Source: an uncultured Actinomycetota bacterium (GTDB taxonomy: Bacteria; Actinomycetota; Acidimicrobiia; Spongiisociales; UBA5794). From it: a stretch of 64,000 bases of DNA. The translations under genes were made by a program, and so were the position numbers. The stretch covers positions 2,334-66,333 of the forward strand of contig CAWAUO010000022.1 in NCBI GenBank assembly GCA_963785245.1, written 5' to 3'. Below, in pieces: positions 54,211 to 61,720 of this stretch. A model generated the notes under the pieces. That model was not told the DNA's origin, made no database searches, and was given only the letters and a program-made list of their open reading frames with translations. Position 1 is the stretch's first letter. Every line of letters begins with the position of its first letter.

Positions 54211-54810
54211 CTACAACTCGTATCTCCGCGACCGGTCTACTACGTACCAGGCGGCGGGGAGGGCGACGCCGGCGAGGGCCGCCTTGATGAGGTCGCCGGC
54301 CACGAATGGATAGAGCCCTGCGTTGAGTGCGGCCGACAGGGTCGGAATCGAATCAACGGTTGCCCAAAGCCAGGTGACCCCGAGGGTGTAGACGGCGGCG
54401 CTTCCAGCGAGGAACGCCGGAACGGCTGTGCGAATCGACCGGTCCTTGCGCTGTTCGGCGAAGCGACCAACAAGCCAGGCGGCGACGATGAAGCCCATGA
54501 GGTAGCCGAGCGAGGCGCCGGTCGCGTAGGTCCAACCGCCCTGCCCACCGGCGTAGAACGGGAGGCCGATGGCACCGAGAGCAACGTAGATCATCATGCT
54601 CCCTGCCCCGATCCTCGAGCCCAGCGCAGCACCCGCGAGCAGCACGGCGAACGTCTGGCCGGTGACCGCGATCGGTGTCCCCGGGAGCGGGATCCTCACC
54701 TGCGCCGCGAGGGCGGTGACCAGGGCGAATCCGATCATGAGGCCGACGGTGATTGCGGCCCGGCGCGGCAGCGCGACACCGGTGATGACGTTGGGGTGGA
54801 CTGCTTGCAC
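54211..54810 (-). CDS. bioY: Biotin transporter BioY
   Basis: PLPGTPIAVTGQT, GLPFYAGG, GYLMGF, PFVAGDLIK; RBS GAAAGG before GTG 54810. Confidence 0.9.
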   Translation of the reverse strand: MQAVHPNVITGVALPRRAAITVGLMIGFALVTALAAQVRIPLPGTPIAVTGQTFAVLLAGAALGSRIGAGSMMIYVALGAIGLPFYAGGQGGWTYATGASLGYLMGFIVAAWLVGRFAEQRKDRSIRTAVPAFLAGSAAVYTLGVTWLWATVDSIPTLSAALNAGLYPFVAGDLIKAALAGVALPAAWYVVDRSRRYEL

Positions 54811-54883
54811 GATGTGCCTTTCGATCGGTTTGCGGAGAGTGAGCGGCTCAAGCAAGCCACTCAACCCGCCGATGTGGACAGTC

Positions 54884-55444
54884 ATGGGACTCGCTCGGAC
54901 GCTGATTCGTTTCATCGCTGTGATTGGCCTCGTCGCGCTCATCTCAACGACGACGGCAGCGCATGCCGCAGTGCCAACCTCTGCTGCTGTTCCCGCTCCA
55001 AGCCGGCAGCCTACGTGGTCCCCAGCTCAGGAATCGGGAGCGGATGTCTCCAGGCTCCAGATCCCGGCAATTGGAGTTGACGAAACCGTCCGATCAGGGA
55101 TTGCGCTCTCCGTAATCGACCGCGGCGTTGCTCACTGGGCAGGGACCTCGGAACCAGGCGGTCCTGGAAATGTCGTCCTTGCAGGCCACCGCTCGACTCA
55201 TTCGCGCCCGTTCTGGGCGTTGGACCGACTCGAGGTCGGTGACTTGATCTACCTTGACGACAGGGCCGGATTCGCAGTCATGTACAAGGTCTCGGAGACG
55301 TTCATCGTCACCCCCGATGACATCTGGATCTCGTACGATCTGGGCAGACCAATGGTGACGTTGTTCGCATGCCATCCGAAAGGCTCGGCGAGCCAGCGAA
55401 TCGTGGTTCAAGCCGACCTGGTCGCAGGTCGTCGCATCGCGTAA
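54884..55444 (+). CDS. Sortase (class D/E-like)
   Basis: N-terminal signal/TM, NVVLAGHR, VTLFACHP, QRIVV (His/Cys/Arg triad). Confidence 0.85.
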   Translation: MGLARTLIRFIAVIGLVALISTTTAAHAAVPTSAAVPAPSRQPTWSPAQESGADVSRLQIPAIGVDETVRSGIALSVIDRGVAHWAGTSEPGGPGNVVLAGHRSTHSRPFWALDRLEVGDLIYLDDRAGFAVMYKVSETFIVTPDDIWISYDLGRPMVTLFACHPKGSASQRIVVQADLVAGRRIA

Positions 55445-55484: not shown

Positions 55485-56576
55485 ATGGATCCAACGACCA
55501 CCGTCGACACTGACTTCTCGGACCCGCCAGAGTCTGCCGTTGCGTCGCGCAAGCCGATGCCGAAGTGGCCCTTCGTTCTCGCGGGGTTGCTCATGGTGAT
55601 CGGCATCGCGGTTGCCATCGCGTGGCCGATCAAGGTTCCGTACTACACGTTGTCTCCCGGGCCGCTCTATGACACGTCAGACTTCGTATTCGTCGTCGGC
55701 GACGAGGCGCAGTACGAGGTCGATGGCGAGCTGTTCTTCCTCACCGTTGCATTGCGCCAAGCCAACATCTTTGAGTACGCAGCCGGACTCTTGAACCCGA
55801 AGGTGGAGGTTGCGCCGCGCCAGAACATCCGGCCGTCGGGTGTCTCTCCCGAGGACCTGCGGCGCGAGAACCTTGCACGGATGGAGCAGTCGAAGACCGA
55901 CGCGACCTTCGTGGCGCTCACGAAGCTCGGCTACGAGCCGACGTACACCGGAACCGGAGCGCTGGTCATCGAGACGGTTCCCGACTCAGCGGCCGATGGC
56001 GTGGTGGTGGCGGAAGACGTCATCGTTGCGATCGACGGCACCGAGGTTGCATTCCGGTCCGATGTCATCGACGGTCTCTCCGCCAAAGAGATCGGCGACC
56101 CCGTCACGCTCACGATCCAGCGGCTGATCGAAGGATCTGACGAGGTCGAGGTCGTTGAGGTCGACATCTTCCTCGGTGCCCACACCGACGACCCCGACCG
56201 GCCGATGGTCGGTGTGCTGCTCGACAACAGCCCACCGATCGTTGAGTTCCCCATCGAAGTTGACACCGATACCCAGAATATTGGGGGACCGTCAGCCGGC
56301 TTGATGTTCACGCTCGAGATCATGAATCAGTTGACCGAGCAGGACCTCACTGATGGTCGGCGAATCGCCGGAACCGGAACGATCGCGCGCGACGGCACGG
56401 TTGGAGGCATCGGGGGTGTGCAACAGAAGGTCTACGGCGCAATCGATGCTGGGGCGGCGGTTGTCCTCGTACCCGCTTCAAACTACGACGACGCTCTGGT
56501 GGCTGCCGGGGACAACATCGTGGTTGTCCGGGTCGAGACCATCGACGACGCCCTCGAGTACCTCGAGTTCAGCTGA
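55485..56576 (+). CDS. YlbL-family PDZ + Lon-like (S16) membrane protease
   Basis: PYYTLSPG, PDZ core, IGGPSAGLMF, IAGTGTI, GGIGGVQQKV. Confidence 0.92.
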   Translation: MDPTTTVDTDFSDPPESAVASRKPMPKWPFVLAGLLMVIGIAVAIAWPIKVPYYTLSPGPLYDTSDFVFVVGDEAQYEVDGELFFLTVALRQANIFEYAAGLLNPKVEVAPRQNIRPSGVSPEDLRRENLARMEQSKTDATFVALTKLGYEPTYTGTGALVIETVPDSAADGVVVAEDVIVAIDGTEVAFRSDVIDGLSAKEIGDPVTLTIQRLIEGSDEVEVVEVDIFLGAHTDDPDRPMVGVLLDNSPPIVEFPIEVDTDTQNIGGPSAGLMFTLEIMNQLTEQDLTDGRRIAGTGTIARDGTVGGIGGVQQKVYGAIDAGAAVVLVPASNYDDALVAAGDNIVVVRVETIDDALEYLEFS

Positions 56577-56627
56577 CTCCGGAGTCGAATACCCGGGACG
56601 GACGGGTCACGTCGTTACCCTGGCCAC

Positions 56628-58763
56628 ATGGACGAGCCCACCGATTCTGACGCGCCCGCTACCGCATTCCGCGTTGCCCGCAAGGGCTATGACCGGCAGC
56701 AGGTGGACGCCCACATCAGCGCTGCTGCCCGGAGCGCAGCGGCCCTGGAACAACGGATCGCGGAGCTGGAAGCCGGGCTGAGCGAGCTTGGCCTCGACCG
56801 TCCGACCGATCTGGCAACCGAACTCGATCTTGTCGGTGAGGAGGTCAAGCGGATCCTCGCCGAAGCTCGGGTCGCTGCCGAGCAGATGCGGTCACGCGCG
56901 GCGGACGACGCCGCGCGCTGGCGAGCAGAAGCGGATGCCGAATCGCGTGCGGTTCGCGACTCCACCCGCCAAACGGCCTTCGATGTGCGCCGAACCGTGT
57001 GGGAGACCGGCACGGAGATCCTCGCCAACGTTGCTTCCGAGGGCGAGGCCCTTGCTGTCGCCGCGACCGAACGATCCCTGTTCGTCCAAGCAGAGGCAGA
57101 GCGAGAGGCATCGCACCTCACCGCCGATGCTCGGCGAGAGCGCGAGGAGGCTGTCCGCATCGGGCGGGAAGAGGCAGAGCGGCTCGTTGCAGCCGCACGC
57201 CAGGAAGCCGAATCCATGGTCTCGGCAGCCCGTCGCCAGGCCGATGCCGCGCAGGAGCGTGCTCGCGCGCTCGAGGTGAGGCGTTCTGAGTTGATGGCAG
57301 AACTCGAAGCGGCCCGTGCCACGATCGCCGGCGTTGAGCCCGATCCCGATCCTGAGCCGGTTCCGGAGTCCGAAGCCATATCGGTCGTGAGCGAAGGTGT
57401 CGATGGGATCGATCTCGGGTCGCTGCCCGAGAGTCACTGGCCGGAAGATGAGGGTTCCGTCAAGATCGTCTCACCCGACCGGATCCTCACTACCGAGCCG
57501 GTTGATGCCGACGCCATGGTGGCCGAGGTGGAAGCGCTTCGCGGGTCGTCAGTCGTTGATGAGCCGCCGGTCCTCGATTCCGAGTCGGTGCCTGAGCCGG
57601 TGCCGGAGCCCGAACCGGAATCGGAGCAGGAACCGATTCCCGAAGTGGTCTCGGTGCCTGAACCCGCTCCGATTCTGGAGCCGGTTCCGGAGCCCGAGCC
57701 TGAACCTGTGCCTGAATCTGTGCCGGAGCCCGAACCGGAATCGGAGCAGGAACCGATTCCCGAAGTGGTCTCGGTGCCTGAACCCGCTCCGATTCTGGAG
57801 CCGGTTCCGGAGCCCGAGCCTGAACCTGTGGCGGAACCTGGTGCCGAGCCTGAGCCTGTGCCCGAACCGACTCCGGCGCCGGATCCGCTCGCCGGGCTGT
57901 TCGCCCAACTCCGGGCCCCCGCGACCGCATCAGAGCCGGCGTCCGATGCACCCATTCCTCCCCGTCAAGGGGCGGCGGCGGTGTCGGACGACATCGCCGA
58001 GGGTGGAGGGGATCTCTCCACAGAACCTGACGAGTCGCCAGAGCCGGAGTCTGTTCCTCCCGAGCCAACCCCGGGACCGGGCCCCGCGCCGTCGGAGGAC
58101 ACCGGATCCTCGCCGGGCGGTGATCTCGACGCGTTCGCCCTCCGCGAGCGTCTCTTGCTCCCCGTCCAGAACCGGGCGCTTCGCACGGTGAAGAGGCATC
58201 TCGTCGAGGCCCAGAACCGGGCTCTCGAAGACCTGCGCCTGACCGACGGCTGGGAACCCGACGCATCCATCGTGAGCGACGAGGTCGTCGAGGCGCTCAG
58301 AGTCCTCGCGCAGGAGAGTGTGGTCGCCGGATTCACCGCTGCGGCCGAGATGACCGGGACGGCACAGACCCCGCAACCCGACAACGTCGAAATTGGAGAT
58401 TCCTCAGTTGAATTCACTGCAGCGCTCGTCGACGCCGTGCAAGGATCGGTCGCCCGTTCCCGAGAGACGGCAGCGGGACACCGAGAGACCGGGGCTTCCC
58501 TTTCGAGAGTGTTCCGCTCGTGGCGGACCGACGACGCCGAGCGCCGGGTGCGGTTCGCGTCTCGCACCGCCTACCACGCGGGCGTTACAGCAGCACTGGC
58601 CCATCTTGGCTCCGCTGAGGTGGCGGTCATCGCGTCCGGCCACCCGTGCGCGGACTGCCCGGCGACCAAAGGTCCATGGTCGATCTCGGCCGGACCGCCA
58701 AGCGGCACAATGATGCCGCCGGCACGCGTCGAGTGCGCATGCACCATCGTCCCGTCCCCGTGA
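56628..58763 (+). CDS. DivIVA-domain coiled-coil protein with Pro/Glu linker and C-terminal MuF-like Cys domain
   Basis: [14 protein letters not shown], long Ala/Glu/Arg coiled coil, PE repeats, CADC...[13 protein letters not shown]. Confidence 0.75.
57600..57830 (+). repeat. In-frame tandem duplication, 111-nt exact copies with 120-nt period
   Basis: 57600-57710 is identical to 57720-57830. Confidence 0.95.
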
Positions 58764-58789
58764 TGCGACGACTCTCGTAGACTCACCAC

Positions 58790-61720
58790 GTGATCAATCG
58801 CGAACCAATCCCGTACGTCAAGAAAGGCCGCTCCCGCCGGATCCTCTGGATCATCCTCGGCGTCGGCTTCATTGGGCTCATCACCATGCGGTCGCTGGCC
58901 ACGATGTGGACCGACTACCTGTGGTATTCGAGCGTCGACCAGGTCGGTGTGTGGACCACGTTGGTCTTCACTCGGCTGTGGCTCGTGCTCGCCGCGTCGC
59001 TCGTAGCGTTCGCGATTATCTGGGTCAATCTCTACATCGTTGATCGGATCTCTCCCCGCCAGGGCGTAACCCCGGGGAGTCCGGACGAAGAGTTGCTGAT
59101 GCGCTATCAGACATGGGTTGAGCCCCGTTCCGGTCGCCTGCGCCTCGGCGCTTCCGTGTTTTTCGGAATCCTGCTCGGTGTCGGTGCTGCCGCCTGGTGG
59201 GAGAACTGGCTGCTCTACTTCCGCGGCGGTTCCTTCGGCGTCACCGATCCAATCTTCAACCACGACGTCAGCCTGTATGTGTTCGATGTTCCGTTCATGC
59301 GAGATGTGTTCTCATGGACGTTCCAACTGGTTCTCGTCCTGACCCTGATCGTGGTCGCCGTCCACTACCTCAATGGCGGCATCAACATCCAGGGGCCCGG
59401 AAAGCGCACGAGCTCCGGCGTCAAGGCACACGTCTCCATCCTGCTCGCCATCCTGGCTCTCCTGAAGGTCGTCGGCTACCAACTCGACAAGTGGGACCTC
59501 CTCTACAGCAGTCGCGGTCAGGTGTTCGGCGCCTCGTACACCGACGTGAATGCGCAGGTCCCTGCGCTCAATCTGCTGATCATCATCTCGCTTGTTGCCG
59601 CCGTCATCTTGTTGGTGAATCTGTGGTTCCGCGGATGGACCCTCCCGCTTGTTGCCGTCGGGCTCTGGCTGGTGACCTCGATCATCGTCGGCGGTGTCTA
59701 CCCGGCTCTCATCCAGCGACTGACCGTCCAGCCCGATGAGGTGAACAAAGAGTCGGAGTACGTCGCGTACAACATCGAATTCACGCGGGAGGCCTACGGG
59801 CTCGCCGACGTCGAAGTCGAACCGTTCGCCGCAGAGCCGGTGCTCACGCCCCAGGATCTCGAGGCGAACGCCACCACGATCAGCAACATCCGGCTGTGGG
59901 ATCCGGGTGTCCTCAATGTCACCTACCGGCAGTTGCAGAACATCGTCACGTACTACGACATCGGCGATGTGGACGTCGACCGGTACGAGATCGATGGCGA
60001 ACTCACCCAGGTGATGGTGTCGGCCCGCGAGCTCGAGGAGCAGGGTATCCCGGGTGAGGGCTGGGTGACGGAGCGCCTGGTGTACACCCACGGATTCGGT
60101 TCGGTGCTGAGCCCGGCGAACGACGTGACCGTTCAGGGGCAACCGGACTTCCTCGTCAAGGACATTCCGCCGGTCAACCTCTCGGATGACGAAAGCCTCA
60201 ACATCGAGCAGCCGCGGATCTACTTCTCCGACCACGCGGAGACCGACTACGTGATTGCGGGGACGAGCCAGCAGGAGGTCGACTTCCCGATCGGCTCCAG
60301 CGGCGCCGATGTCGCGACGAACTCGTACGACGGTGCCGGCGGAGTGAACCTCGGCGGCTTCTTCCAGCGGGCCGCGTGGGCGCTGCGATTCGGCAACCTC
60401 GACACGCTGATCTCGGATCGGCTCTCGGACGACTCGAAGGTGCTGCTCGAGCGCAACCTCCGGTCACGCATCGCCCGCCTCGCACCGTTCCTCTACGGCG
60501 ATGCCGACCCGTACATCGTGATCGCCAACGGGCGCCTCAAGTGGATCATGGATCTCTATACGATCACCGACCGGTACCCCTATTCGGCGCCTGCCAACAC
60601 GGCGCGGCTCAACCAGGGTGAAGGACTACCGAACCGGTTCAACTACATCCGCAACTCCGTGAAGGCAGTCGTCGACGCCTATGACGGGACGATCGACCTC
60701 TTCGTGATCGACCCCGATGACCCGATCATCCAAGCGAACGAGGCGATCTTCCCCGGCGTCTTCCGGCCCGGCTCGGAGCTCCCGCCTGAGGTCATCGAGC
60801 ACTTCCGGTATCCGGAAGACCTCTTCCGGATTCAGACCGATCAATACCAGCTCTATCACATGACGAACCCGGATCAGTTCTTCACGGTGTCGGATCCGTG
60901 GCAGATCGCCCGAGATCCGTCGACTTCGCCGCGGCCGGCGCTGCGCGGACGGTTCGTGGATTCGAGCGGCCAGGAATTCAGCCCGATGCTTCCGTACTAC
61001 CTGCTGATGAAGCTACCCGGTGAGGACCGGTCGTCGTTCCTGCTCATGCAGCCGTTCACGCCGCGTGGCCGCCCCAACATGGTGTCGTTCATGGTTGCGA
61101 AGAGCGGTCCGCTCGAGGAGTACGGACGCATTATCGAGTACGGCTTGCCGTCGGACAGCCAGATCGACGGCCCCGGTCAGGTCGGCAACTTCATCAACCA
61201 GGATCCGGCGATCTCCGCCGAGTTCACGCTTCTCGGCCAGGGTGGGTCCCGGGTGATCCAGGGGAACATGCTGGTCATTCCGATCGAGCAGTCGCTGTTG
61301 TACGTTCAACCGATCTACATCTCTGCGAACGATGAAGCGTCGAGCACCGGTATCCCGGAGTTCAAGCGAGTTGTCGTGTCGTTCAACGGTCAAATCGAGA
61401 TGCGCGATTCGCTGTCGGAGGCGCTCACGGCCGTCTTCGGCGTGCAGGATGGATCCGGCGATGGCACCGGTGACGGGGACACGACCGAGCCGCCGACGGG
61501 TACGCTCGAGGAGCAGATCGTCGAATTGCTGGCCCGCGCAGACCAAGCGTTCATGGAGGCCGACGAGGCCATGCGCACCGGCGACCTCGTGACCTGGGCT
61601 CAGAAGATCGAAGAGGCTCAGGCAGCGGTCGAGGAAGCGACTCGGCTCCTGATGGCTGCGAACGAAGTCGCTCCGGACGCTGCGTCCGGTGACGCCGGCG
61701 ACACAACGACCGACGCGTAG
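58790..61720 (+). CDS. UPF0182 family membrane protein
   Basis: WTDYLWY, FGVTDPIFNHDVSLYVF, GASYTDV, NIRLWDP, DVDRY, YTHGFG, NYIRNSVKAVVDAYDG. Confidence 0.95.
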   Translation: MINREPIPYVKKGRSRRILWIILGVGFIGLITMRSLATMWTDYLWYSSVDQVGVWTTLVFTRLWLVLAASLVAFAIIWVNLYIVDRISPRQGVTPGSPDEELLMRYQTWVEPRSGRLRLGASVFFGILLGVGAAAWWENWLLYFRGGSFGVTDPIFNHDVSLYVFDVPFMRDVFSWTFQLVLVLTLIVVAVHYLNGGINIQGPGKRTSSGVKAHVSILLAILALLKVVGYQLDKWDLLYSSRGQVFGASYTDVNAQVPALNLLIIISLVAAVILLVNLWFRGWTLPLVAVGLWLVTSIIVGGVYPALIQRLTVQPDEVNKESEYVAYNIEFTREAYGLADVEVEPFAAEPVLTPQDLEANATTISNIRLWDPGVLNVTYRQLQNIVTYYDIGDVDVDRYEIDGELTQVMVSARELEEQGIPGEGWVTERLVYTHGFGSVLSPANDVTVQGQPDFLVKDIPPVNLSDDESLNIEQPRIYFSDHAETDYVIAGTSQQEVDFPIGSSGADVATNSYDGAGGVNLGGFFQRAAWALRFGNLDTLISDRLSDDSKVLLERNLRSRIARLAPFLYGDADPYIVIANGRLKWIMDLYTITDRYPYSAPANTARLNQGEGLPNRFNYIRNSVKAVVDAYDGTIDLFVIDPDDPIIQANEAIFPGVFRPGSELPPEVIEHFRYPEDLFRIQTDQYQLYHMTNPDQFFTVSDPWQIARDPSTSPRPALRGRFVDSSGQEFSPMLPYYLLMKLPGEDRSSFLLMQPFTPRGRPNMVSFMVAKSGPLEEYGRIIEYGLPSDSQIDGPGQVGNFINQDPAISAEFTLLGQGGSRVIQGNMLVIPIEQSLLYVQPIYISANDEASSTGIPEFKRVVVSFNGQIEMRDSLSEALTAVFGVQDGSGDGTGDGDTTEPPTGTLEEQIVELLARADQAFMEADEAMRTGDLVTWAQKIEEAQAAVEEATRLLMAANEVAPDAASGDAGDTTTDA

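What the first reader, a model, noticed from the sequence alone, without database searches (positions are those of the whole stretch)
56628..58763. DivIVA-like polar scaffold fused to a phage MuF-like Cys domain
Seen: N-terminal [14 protein letters not shown], about 200 aa of coiled coil, a Pro/Glu spacer, then [15 protein letters not shown]...HPCADC...[13 protein letters not shown]. Established: DivIVA domains target negatively curved membranes, and MuF/SPP1 gp7 head proteins end in RA..IARTE..AY..G, CxxC and PPxHPNCRC. No other phage gene is present and the gene lies in the conserved ylbL-UPF0182 locus. Inference: a domesticated phage domain on a pole or septum scaffold, possibly a Zn-binding DNA or partner anchor. 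I know no description of this fusion.
Basis: partly seen in the sequence, partly recalled or inferred. Interest (0 to 1): 0.68.

Follow-up and report, generated by a model that had tools for sequence, protein, structure and literature searches.

The report
DivIVA scaffold carrying phage MuF-like domain
A core chromosomal gene of Acidimicrobiia joins a DivIVA-type membrane scaffold, through a long acidic flexible tether, to a zinc-binding domain with the fold of the phage head protein MuF/SPP1 gp7. It nearly always lies directly in front of the membrane-protein quality-control gene UPF0182, so a phage-type part seems to have been taken over for an unstudied cellular job.

Summary
A family profile of the N-terminus matches the solved DivIVA N-domain (2WUJ, E 1.7e-8), GpsB and Wag31. 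Residues 59-234 are one long helix. Residues 236-498 are acidic, Pro/Glu-rich and disordered, with two short conserved helices. The last 213 residues fold with high confidence (pLDDT 95). In the viral structure library every named match among the top 50 is a MuF-like minor capsid, head-morphogenesis, portal or MuF-fusion protein (best E 1.5e-5, TM up to 0.72). Sequence signals agree but are weak: Phage_Mu_F is the only hit in the genome, exactly here, at 12.5 bits, and profile-profile P is 0.0024.

No phage genes are nearby. The gene is single-copy in 30 of 31 sampled genomes of the class and rare elsewhere in the phylum. UPF0182 follows on the same strand in 104 of 105 loci where this could be checked.

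My reading is a DivIVA-anchored adaptor whose MuF-like Cys4 domain docks a protein partner, most plausibly the UPF0182 complex. That function is inferred, not shown. No paper describes the fusion, but earlier notes of this scan report the same family in at least 22 other genomes.

The parts
56628..58763 (+). Whole gene: 711-aa DivIVA / coiled-coil / acidic tether / MuF-like protein (P0001)
   Evidence: ORF list and translation. The N-terminus [10 protein letters not shown] is conserved in homologues, which supports this start codon.
56616..56621 (+). TACCCT, a -10-like TANNNT hexamer 6 nt before the ATG. It suggests the gene has its own promoter and a leaderless mRNA.
   Evidence: Sequence read. 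A TANNNT hexamer ends 5-9 nt before the start codon in 52 of 55 homologous loci, against 1.4% background. That it is a promoter is inferred.
56655..56801 (+). DivIVA/GpsB-type N-terminal domain, residues about 10-58: a short hairpin at 16-21 and a helix at 23-53
   Evidence: Family profile A2 against PDB: 2WUJ DivIVA E 1.7e-8, GpsB 2e-5, Wag31 3e-5. Pfam DivIVA 21.5-26.8 bits, below the cut-off of 28. Secondary structure from AlphaFold.
56802..57329 (+). Single long helix, residues 59-234, presumed coiled-coil stalk
   Evidence: AlphaFold helix H59-234, with block-mean pLDDT about 80-96 over nearly all of it. Conserved across the family at 0.42-0.77 column identity. Weak FliH and V-ATPase subunit E-like hits.
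57432..57545 (+). Conserved island in the tether, residues 269-306 ([12 protein letters not shown]...[16 protein letters not shown]), with a helix at 294-306
   Evidence: Conservation map: column identity 0.81 at residues 291-300. Helix with pLDDT about 80 between disordered stretches.
57546..57872 (+). Pro/Glu-rich acidic spacer, residues 307-415, disordered and variable in length
   Evidence: 33% Pro, 30 Glu, no Lys or Arg, pI 4.05. Nearly all residues have pLDDT below 50. Low column occupancy across the family.
57588..57850 (+). 120-bp tandem repeat of 2.2 copies inside the spacer, each unit encoding 40 aa
   Evidence: Tandem Repeats Finder: 94% matches, score 475. Database variants P0002 and P0003 (671 aa) are otherwise near-identical and lack one unit.
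57873..57917 (+). Conserved short linear motif [15 protein letters not shown], residues 416-430, with a helix at 420-429
   Evidence: L424 and F425 are invariant, L428 and R429 nearly so, in 51 full-length homologues. pLDDT about 75 amid disorder. The pattern [LIVM]F[AS]x[LIVM]R occurs upstream of the domain in 109 of 165 members.
58122..58760 (+). MuF-like domain, residues 499-711: four long helices followed by a small beta Cys4 knuckle
   Evidence: AlphaFold pLDDT 95, pTM 0.91. Foldseek against BFVD: every named match in the top 50 is a MuF-like, minor capsid, head-morphogenesis, portal or MuF-fusion protein, best E 1.5e-5. PF04233 matches residues 637-707 at 12.5 bits, the only hit in the genome. 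hhalign against canonical MuF: P 0.0024.
58647..58742 (+). Presumed zinc site: C674, C677, C703 and C705 (codons 58647-58649, 58656-58658, 58734-58736, 58740-58742)
   Evidence: C674, C703 and C705 are invariant in 51 homologues. In 197 family C-termini, CxxC occurs in 172, CxxH in 15 and CxC in 167. Metal binding is inferred, not shown.
58778..58783 (+). TAGACT, a -10-like hexamer 6 nt before the GTG start of UPF0182, inside the 26-nt gap after the gene's stop codon
   Evidence: Sequence read. The core GTAGA[AC]T (ATAGACT in two loci) is conserved in all 28 sequences aligned, the window and 27 loci, while its flanks vary. A TANNNT hexamer ends 5-9 nt before the start in 77 of 80 loci, against 1.4% background.
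58790..61720 (+). UPF0182 membrane protein gene, the near-invariant downstream neighbour and the candidate functional partner
   Evidence: Pfam PF03699 E 3.5e-267. Same strand and directly downstream in 104 of 105 loci where this could be checked, and also in L121 and L122.
55485..56576 (+). YlbL-like PDZ + Lon_C membrane protease gene, the frequent upstream neighbour
   Evidence: Pfam Lon_C E 1.3e-8 and PDZ_2 E 3.8e-8. Found upstream in most loci whose flank reaches far enough.

Best explanation
SHOWN. The gene encodes a cytoplasmic multi-part protein with no signal peptide or membrane segment seen and an overall pI of 4.3. It has a DivIVA/GpsB-type N-terminal domain, a helix of about 176 residues, and an acidic disordered tether of about 260 residues carrying two conserved short helices. 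Its C-terminal 213 residues are a homologue, at the level of fold and weak sequence, of the phage MuF/SPP1 gp7 head-morphogenesis domain, with four conserved Cys. It is a vertically inherited, single-copy core gene of Acidimicrobiia, not prophage DNA, and it sits directly upstream of UPF0182 in nearly every genome that has it.

INFERRED. The DivIVA domain and stalk oligomerise and hold the protein at the inner face of the membrane, either at curved regions (poles or septum) or, as GpsB does, on the cytoplasmic tails of membrane proteins. The long acidic tether lets the MuF-like domain search a radius of tens of nanometres. SPP1 gp7 docks on the portal oligomer (PMC5576092). By analogy, the MuF-like domain, stabilised by a Cys4 zinc site, would dock on an oligomeric protein partner. 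The most likely partner is the UPF0182 complex, which a 2025-26 preprint links to FtsH/YccA membrane-protein quality control (10.1101/2025.11.14.688347). The protein would then position or regulate that machinery.

My odds: architecture and homology about 0.9; a protein adaptor rather than a DNA anchor about 0.6; UPF0182 complex as the partner about 0.3.
For: N-domain: family profile hits DivIVA 2WUJ at E 1.7e-8, plus GpsB and Wag31.

Stalk, disorder and the two helical motifs: full-length AlphaFold model and conservation map.

MuF homology:
- AlphaFold pLDDT 95.
- Every named match in the BFVD top 50 is a MuF-like, minor capsid, head-morphogenesis, portal or MuF-fusion protein; best E 1.5e-5, TMq up to 0.72.
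- PF04233's only hit in the genome lies at residues 637-707.
- 11 of 36 members hit PF04233, best E 0.003.
- The homologue in L004 scores 23.6 bits, E 1.9e-4.
- One database homologue carries precomputed PF05103 + PF04233.
- tblastn to phage head and SPP1 gp7-family proteins gives E 2e-4.
- hhalign gives P 0.0024 over 111 columns in a sensible register.

Core-gene status: exactly one copy in 30 of 31 same-class genomes, and a match in 17 of about 370 genomes from the rest of the phylum. No phage-like gene among the neighbours examined.

Link to UPF0182: same strand, directly downstream in 104 of 105 loci, usually with a gap under 100 nt.

UPF0182 and FtsH/YccA: preprint read.

Protein partner favoured over DNA: the MuF-like domain has pI 5.4 and net charge -6, and the whole protein has pI 4.3.

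Zinc site: the Cys ligands are conserved, and the second ligand is His in 15 of 197 members, at the position where hhalign places the conserved His of canonical MuF.
Against: No experiment or interaction prediction supports any partner, and gene adjacency alone does not show binding. Both genes appear to have their own -10-like element and a leaderless start, so co-transcription is not shown.

Most Actinomycetota have UPF0182 without this gene, so UPF0182 does not need it.

The window protein has Arg at the loop-tip position that aligns with Phe17 of Bacillus DivIVA (alignment). From my own knowledge, that Phe inserts into the membrane, so direct lipid binding of the Bacillus kind is doubtful here.

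Sequence similarity to MuF is weak: the window protein is far below Pfam's cut-off, and hhalign gives a probability of only 12%.

Seven invariant Arg/Lys residues in the domain could form a local nucleic-acid-binding patch despite the net negative charge.
Confidence: 0.45

Rival explanations
1. Adaptor for a different partner. The architecture is as described, but the MuF-like domain and the two conserved tether motifs bind something other than UPF0182. Candidates are cell-wall synthases, division proteins or FtsH itself. On this view the adjacency to UPF0182 is only inherited gene order.
For: Both genes seem to have their own promoter-like element. UPF0182 exists without this gene in most of the phylum. 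The genome has six DivIVA-domain ORFs, which fits a general theme of DivIVA modules carrying varied cargo. YlbL, a frequent upstream neighbour, is linked to recovery from the cell-division checkpoint in Bacillus (my own knowledge, not checked here).
Against: Gene order immediately upstream of UPF0182 is kept in 104 of 105 loci down to about 25-30% identity, and across classes. That is more than inertia usually preserves.
Confidence: 0.25
2. Chromosome or DNA anchor. SPP1 gp7 is reported to bind DNA. On this view the MuF-like domain also binds DNA, and the DivIVA part tethers the nucleoid or a DNA end to the pole or septum, working like the RacA-DivIVA pair in Bacillus.
For: gp7 is cited as a DNA-binding protein targeted to the procapsid by the portal (title of reference 32 in PMC5576092). 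Seven Arg/Lys residues are invariant in the domain. DivIVA proteins are known to anchor chromosome-segregation factors (my own knowledge).
Against: The domain is acidic (pI 5.4, net -6) and sits on a strongly acidic tether (pI about 4) that would repel DNA. No par, smc or fts genes lie next to it. No DNA-binding family was hit.
Confidence: 0.15
3. Convergent fold. The C-terminal domain is a helical bundle with a zinc knuckle that only resembles MuF and has no common ancestry with it.
For: The window protein alone hits no Pfam, PHROG or PDB entry. hhalign probability is only 12%. Helical bundles often give spurious structural matches. No solved MuF structure was found for comparison.
Against: The structural hits are specific: every named match in the top 50 is MuF-like or a related phage head or portal protein. 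Independent sequence signals point the same way: PF04233 is the commonest Pfam hit among members and the only hit in the genome, a homologue reaches E 1.9e-4, and tblastn gives E 2e-4. The motifs also line up: the block around AERRxR falls on the ARxIARTE block, GRxCxx[C/H] on DDRTRxxH, and PPxxxCxC on INCRC.
Confidence: 0.05
4. Prophage remnant or assembly chimera. A phage MuF gene fragment became fused by chance or by misassembly to a DivIVA gene.
For: MuF domains are otherwise reported almost only from phages and prophages (PMC5576092, PMC5512222).
Against: The same fusion is found in hundreds of independent assemblies. It is single-copy in 30 of 31 genomes of the class. The C-terminal domain is the best conserved part of the protein. 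No phage genes are nearby, and GC content shows no break.
Confidence: 0.01

Closest known systems
DivIVA / Wag31 / GpsB family (Pfam PF05103; solved N-domains 2WUJ, 6LFA, 4UG3)
   Same: The N-terminal domain is homologous and has the F...RGYD..EVD..L motif. It is followed by a long coiled-coil-type helix. The protein is one of six DivIVA-domain ORFs in this genome.
   Different: It scores below Pfam's cut-off. The loop-tip residue that aligns with Phe17 of Bacillus DivIVA is Arg here, and L, V or M in other subfamilies. It carries an acidic tether of about 260 residues and a globular C-terminal domain of 213 residues, which DivIVA, Wag31 and GpsB lack.
Phage MuF superfamily (Mu gpF/gp30, SPP1 gp7; Pfam PF04233 Phage_Mu_F; Jamet et al. 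2017, PMC5576092)
   Same: The fold of the whole 213-residue domain matches. There is weak but consistent sequence similarity. The C-terminal ...PPxxxCxC motif is shared.
   Different: The gene is not in a phage, is not next to a portal gene, and is a core cellular gene. In phages the MuF domain is N-terminal or stands alone, with toxin or enzyme cargo at its C-terminus. Here it is the C-terminal cargo of a cellular scaffold. The ligand set is Cys4 (GRxCxxC...CxC) instead of DDRTRxxH...CRC.
GpsB as a cytosolic adaptor, and the RacA-DivIVA anchor of Bacillus (functional analogues, from my own knowledge)
   Same: A DivIVA-type module is used to place another activity at a defined membrane site.
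   Different: In those systems the cargo is a separate protein recruited non-covalently. Here the presumed docking module is fused to the scaffold, and its partner is unknown.

Membership tests
DivIVA (PF05103 / TIGR03544 DivIVA domain) | Homology of the N-terminal domain to the solved DivIVA lipid-binding domain | tested here: met
   A profile of 30 family N-termini hits 2WUJ at E 1.7e-8, 7O39 DivIVA at 2.9e-5, GpsB at 2e-5 and Wag31 at 3e-5.
DivIVA (PF05103 / TIGR03544 DivIVA domain) | Score above Pfam's gathering cut-off (28 bits) | tested here: not met
   21.5 bits for the whole protein, 24.0 bits for the N-terminal 238 aa and 26.8 bits in the genome scan. TIGR03544 gives 12.2 bits against a cut-off of 22. 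Many homologues do carry a precomputed PF05103 hit.
DivIVA (PF05103 / TIGR03544 DivIVA domain) | Exposed hydrophobic and basic residue pair at the loop tip (Phe17/Arg18 in Bacillus subtilis DivIVA) used for membrane binding | tested here: not met
   In the alignment Phe17 corresponds to Arg18 of the window protein and Arg18 to Lys19 (FRVARKGYD). Other subfamilies have L, V or M at that position. The role of Phe17 is from my own knowledge.
DivIVA (PF05103 / TIGR03544 DivIVA domain) | Coiled-coil region after the N-domain | tested here: met
   AlphaFold helix at residues 59-234, with block-mean pLDDT about 80-96 over nearly all of it. The oligomeric state was not tested.
DivIVA (PF05103 / TIGR03544 DivIVA domain) | Localisation to poles or septum (negatively curved membrane) | not testable with these tools
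   Needs microscopy of a fluorescent fusion.
Phage MuF (PF04233 Phage_Mu_F; MuF superfamily of Jamet et al. 2017) | Sequence match to PF04233 above its cut-off (29.6 bits) | tested here: not met
   The window protein scores 12.5 bits, E 0.4, though this is the only hit in the genome and lies at residues 637-707. The best family member gives E 0.003. The L004 homologue scores 23.6 bits. One database homologue has a weak precomputed PF04233 hit.
Phage MuF (PF04233 Phage_Mu_F; MuF superfamily of Jamet et al. 2017) | Shared fold with MuF proteins | tested here: met
   Foldseek against BFVD: 14 matches at E <= 1e-3, and every named match in the top 50 is a MuF-like, minor capsid, head-morphogenesis, portal or MuF-fusion protein; TMq up to 0.72. 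No solved structure is available for comparison.
Phage MuF (PF04233 Phage_Mu_F; MuF superfamily of Jamet et al. 2017) | Profile-profile homology to canonical MuF | tested here: inconclusive
   hhalign of A1 against 8 canonical MuF proteins: E and P 0.0024, 111 columns, probability 12%. The MuF alignment was shallow and from one subfamily.
Phage MuF (PF04233 Phage_Mu_F; MuF superfamily of Jamet et al. 2017) | Gene lies in a phage head module, immediately downstream of the portal gene | tested here: not met
   The upstream gene is the YlbL-like protease and the downstream gene is UPF0182. The same context holds in more than 100 genomes. The criterion is taken from PMC5576092.
Phage MuF (PF04233 Phage_Mu_F; MuF superfamily of Jamet et al. 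2017) | Binds the portal oligomer and is packaged in the capsid | not testable with these tools
   A biochemical property of SPP1 gp7 (PMC5576092). There is no portal gene beside the gene, and the rest of the genome was not searched for one.

The most novel reading that the evidence does not exclude
The MuF fold is a general adaptor for docking onto ring- or dome-shaped oligomers, and it was captured once by an ancestor of the Acidimicrobiia. Fused to a DivIVA scaffold, it became a dedicated cytoplasmic subunit that positions or gates the UPF0182 / FtsH / YccA membrane-protein quality-control machine at poles or the septum. This would be the first cellular job known for a phage head-morphogenesis domain, and it would give a handle on the function of UPF0182.
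Probability: 0.2. Interest if true: 0.75.

Novelty: new variant of a known kind. Interest (0 to 1): 0.55.

Why it matters
MuF is one of the commonest phage head domains, yet the literature read here says its function is unknown (PMC5576092). A conserved cellular copy on a DivIVA scaffold would be a clear case of a virion part taken over by the host. It would also give a phage-free setting in which to learn what the fold binds.

The near-invariant position in front of UPF0182 offers a concrete, testable partner. UPF0182 is conserved throughout the Actinobacteria and has only just been linked to FtsH-mediated membrane-protein quality control. Testing that partnership could illuminate both proteins.

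Two limits apply. The organisms are mostly uncultured Acidimicrobiia, and every functional statement is inferred. Within this scan the same family has already been reported from at least 22 other genomes. This window therefore adds an example and some details rather than a first sighting.

Tried and rejected
- Single-sequence searches of the C-terminal 213 aa against Pfam, PHROGs and PDB sequences found nothing useful. A family profile against PDB sequences gave only chance-level hits.
- Foldseek against PDB gave no match better than E 0.24, so no solved relative was found to compare with.
- PF28068 is listed for many homologues but is absent from the local Pfam copy. Truncated homologues allow an indirect placement. 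P0032, which starts near residue 87, has it. P0050, which starts near residue 165, and P0045 lack it. I therefore infer that it covers part of the coiled-coil region, not the MuF-like domain.
- A homologue search with the out-of-class protein from L004 gave only 8 hits and no organism names. The lineages outside Acidimicrobiia therefore remain unnamed.
- I considered an operon ylbL - gene - UPF0182. No terminator-like site lies between the genes and the gaps are 51 and 26 nt. However, conserved -10-like hexamers directly before both start codons point to separate leaderless transcripts, so I do not claim an operon.
- I considered a GpsB-style interaction between the DivIVA domain and the Arg-rich N-terminal tail of UPF0182. 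From memory, similar tails occur in UPF0182 of species that lack this gene, so I dropped the idea without testing it.
- Literature searches for DivIVA with MuF or Phage_Mu_F found no description of the fusion.
The geometry of the Cys4 site and the surface charge could not be measured.
Full report
OBSERVATION. The window holds one uninterrupted ORF at 56628..58763 on the + strand, encoding 711 aa. The gene lies between a PDZ + Lon_C (YlbL-like) gene at 55485-56576 and a UPF0182 gene at 58790-61720, the latter at Pfam E 3.5e-267. The neighbours further out are BioY, a sortase, ABC-transporter ORFs and a LacI-type regulator. I saw no phage gene among them and no break in GC content.

N-TERMINUS. 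Pfam DivIVA matches residues 12-120 just below its cut-off of 28 bits. It scores 21.5 bits on the whole protein, 24.0 on the N-terminal part and 26.8 in the genome scan. A profile of 30 non-redundant family N-termini (A2) is decisive. It hits the solved N-domain of Bacillus subtilis DivIVA (2WUJ) at E 1.7e-8, GpsB structures at about 2e-5 and Wag31 (6LFA) at 3e-5. In that alignment Phe17 of Bacillus DivIVA falls on Arg18 of the window protein. From my own knowledge, Phe17 is the membrane-inserting residue. Other subfamilies have Leu, Val or Met at that position. The genome encodes five further DivIVA-domain ORFs that score above the cut-off, so this gene is one paralogue among several.

MIDDLE. 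A full-length AlphaFold model was built from 51 homologues. It shows a short hairpin and a helix (residues 16-53), one continuous helix (59-234, block-mean pLDDT about 80-96 over nearly all of it) and then disorder from 236 to 497. Two short helices interrupt the disorder, at 294-306 and 420-429, and they coincide with the only conserved islands of the tether. These are [12 protein letters not shown]...[16 protein letters not shown] and [12 protein letters not shown], with L424 and F425 invariant. The tether is extremely acidic. Residues 307-415 are 33% Pro with 30 Glu and no Lys or Arg. It contains a 120-bp tandem repeat of 2.2 copies, and near-identical database variants of 671 aa lack one 40-aa unit.

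C-TERMINUS. On its own, the last 213 aa hits nothing in Pfam, PHROGs or PDB sequences. It is nevertheless the best conserved part of the protein. It defines a large family: 72 close relatives and 442 clusters at 50% identity in the exhaustive search.

With an alignment of 36 members (A1), AlphaFold gives a very confident model of four long helices and a small beta element (pLDDT 95, pTM 0.91). Foldseek against the viral structure library returns 14 matches at E <= 1e-3. Every named match in the top 50 is a MuF-like minor capsid protein, a phage head-morphogenesis domain, or a portal, protease, ADP-ribosyltransferase or zeta-toxin protein of the MuF-fusion type. The best E is 1.5e-5 and the query-normalised TM score reaches 0.72. 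No solved structure matches.

The sequence evidence is weak but consistent.
- PF04233 Phage_Mu_F has a single match in the whole 2.66-Mb genome, exactly at residues 637-707 (12.5 bits).
- It is the commonest Pfam family among the 36 members, hitting 11 of them with best E 0.003.
- A homologue in another family of the phylum (L004) reaches 23.6 bits, E 1.9e-4.
- One database homologue carries precomputed PF05103 + PF04233.
- The last 75 residues of a member hit streptococcal phage head proteins and SPP1 gp7-family proteins by tblastn, best E 2e-4.
- hhalign against eight canonical MuF proteins gives P 0.0024 over 111 columns.

In the hhalign register the block around AERRxR falls on ARxIARTE, GRxCxx[C/H] on DDRTRxxH, and PPxxxCxC on INCRC. 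CxxC is therefore a trait of this family, not of the canonical MuF proteins aligned here. In 197 family C-termini, CxxC occurs in 172, CxxH in 15 and CxC in 167, as expected for a structural zinc site. I conclude that the domain is a divergent MuF homologue. It fails the family's formal sequence cut-off and its genomic-context criterion, so I call it MuF-like rather than a member of the phage family.

DISTRIBUTION AND CONTEXT. In 401 genomes sampled across the phylum, 30 of 31 genomes of the window's class have exactly one copy, and 17 of about 370 others have a match. The 80 best loci in the species-level genome collection are almost all labelled Acidimicrobiia or Actinomycetota MAGs, apart from a few bins with other labels. 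UPF0182 lies on the same strand directly downstream in 104 of 105 loci where this could be checked, usually with a gap under 100 nt. The YlbL-like gene is a frequent upstream neighbour. Two loci fetched by exact protein look-up show the same arrangement. Of 165 long members, 143 carry a strict DivIVA motif, and most of the rest carry variant motifs or begin downstream of it. The fusion is therefore ancient, vertically inherited and under selection. The prophage-remnant and chimera explanations are excluded.

TRANSCRIPTION (side finding). No terminator-like site separates the three genes, and the gaps are 51 and 26 nt. However, a TANNNT hexamer ends 5-9 nt before the start codon of this gene in 52 of 55 loci. 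In the window this is TACCCT at 56616-56621, then 6 nt, then the ATG. The same holds before the UPF0182 start in 77 of 80 loci, where the window has TAGACT at 58778-58783, then 6 nt, then the GTG. The background for any ATG or GTG triplet in the same loci is 1.4%. This is the geometry of actinobacterial leaderless promoters, as far as I know them. It supports the annotated start codon and means that an operon should not be assumed.

MECHANISM. The architecture, the homologies, the distribution and the synteny are shown. The rest is inferred. I think the DivIVA domain and stalk form a membrane-associated oligomer. The acidic tether acts as a long flexible leash. The MuF-like Cys4 domain, possibly helped by the two conserved tether helices, docks on a protein partner.

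In SPP1 the MuF protein gp7 binds the portal oligomer and is present in one or two copies per capsid (PMC5576092). MuF is also a hub domain that carries effectors into the phage head (PMC5512222). By analogy and by synteny, the most plausible partner is the UPF0182 complex. A recent preprint predicts that complex to be a tetrameric dome and links it by phenotype to FtsH and YccA in three actinobacteria (10.1101/2025.11.14.688347).

The DNA-anchor alternative is less likely, because the domain has pI 5.4 and net charge -6 on a tether of pI about 4. It is not excluded, because seven Arg/Lys residues are invariant.

My odds are about 0.9 for the architecture and homology, about 0.6 for a protein adaptor rather than a DNA anchor, and about 0.3 for UPF0182 as the partner.

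NOVELTY. Full-text searches found no paper that combines DivIVA with MuF or Phage_Mu_F. Where databases name these proteins at all, they call them hypothetical or DivIVA domain-containing. Against the literature, this is a new variant of known kinds: a DivIVA scaffold with an unprecedented cargo, and a MuF domain in a cellular role.

Within this scan it is not new. I consulted the earlier notes only after my own tests. They report the same family, the same synteny and the same reading in at least 22 other genomes. They agree with my results but are not independent evidence.

This window adds the following details:
- the Arg at the DivIVA loop tip;
- the census of zinc ligands;
- the charge argument against DNA binding;
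- the repeat-length polymorphism in the spacer;
- the inferred position of PF28068 in the coiled-coil region;
- the conserved leaderless-type promoters of this gene and of UPF0182.

LIMITS. The lineages outside Acidimicrobiia that carry the gene could not be named.

Noticed in passing
window 56616-56621 and 58778-58783: Conserved -10-like TANNNT hexamers lie 6 nt before the ATG of the DivIVA-MuF gene and before the GTG of UPF0182. The same geometry holds in 52 of 55 and 77 of 80 homologous loci, against 1.4% background. This suggests that both genes are made as leaderless mRNAs from their own promoters.
   Followed up: yes
window 57588-57850: A 120-bp tandem repeat of 2.2 copies encodes a 40-aa Pro/Glu-rich unit. 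Near-identical database proteins of 671 aa (P0002, P0003) lack one unit, so the tether length varies between close strains or assemblies.
   Followed up: partly
G000:C11:43810-44133 and four other places (loci L124-L128): The genome has five further DivIVA-domain ORFs above Pfam's cut-off. One lies in an open frame of 1480 aa. DivIVA modules fused to large, varied C-terminal parts may be a general theme in this lineage.
   Followed up: no
G003:C4:269758-270387 and 271172-271441: One genome from another class has two MuF-like domain genes side by side (open frames of 500 and 454 aa), apparently a tandem duplication of the family.
   Followed up: no
window 54211-54942 (-) and 54596-55444 (+): The longest sortase ORF overlaps the BioY gene on the opposite strand by about 350 nt. 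The Pfam sortase domain begins only at residue 154, so the true sortase start is probably much further downstream.
   Followed up: no
L061, L064, L065, L093 (gaps of 969-2586 nt): In a few Acidimicrobiia an extra stretch, probably one or two genes, is inserted between the DivIVA-MuF gene and UPF0182. I did not look at what it encodes.
   Followed up: no
homologues P0004-P0073: Many homologues carry a Pfam family, PF28068, that is absent from the local Pfam copy. Judging from which truncated homologues keep it, it seems to cover part of the coiled-coil region (roughly residues 87-235) and not the MuF-like domain.
   Followed up: partly
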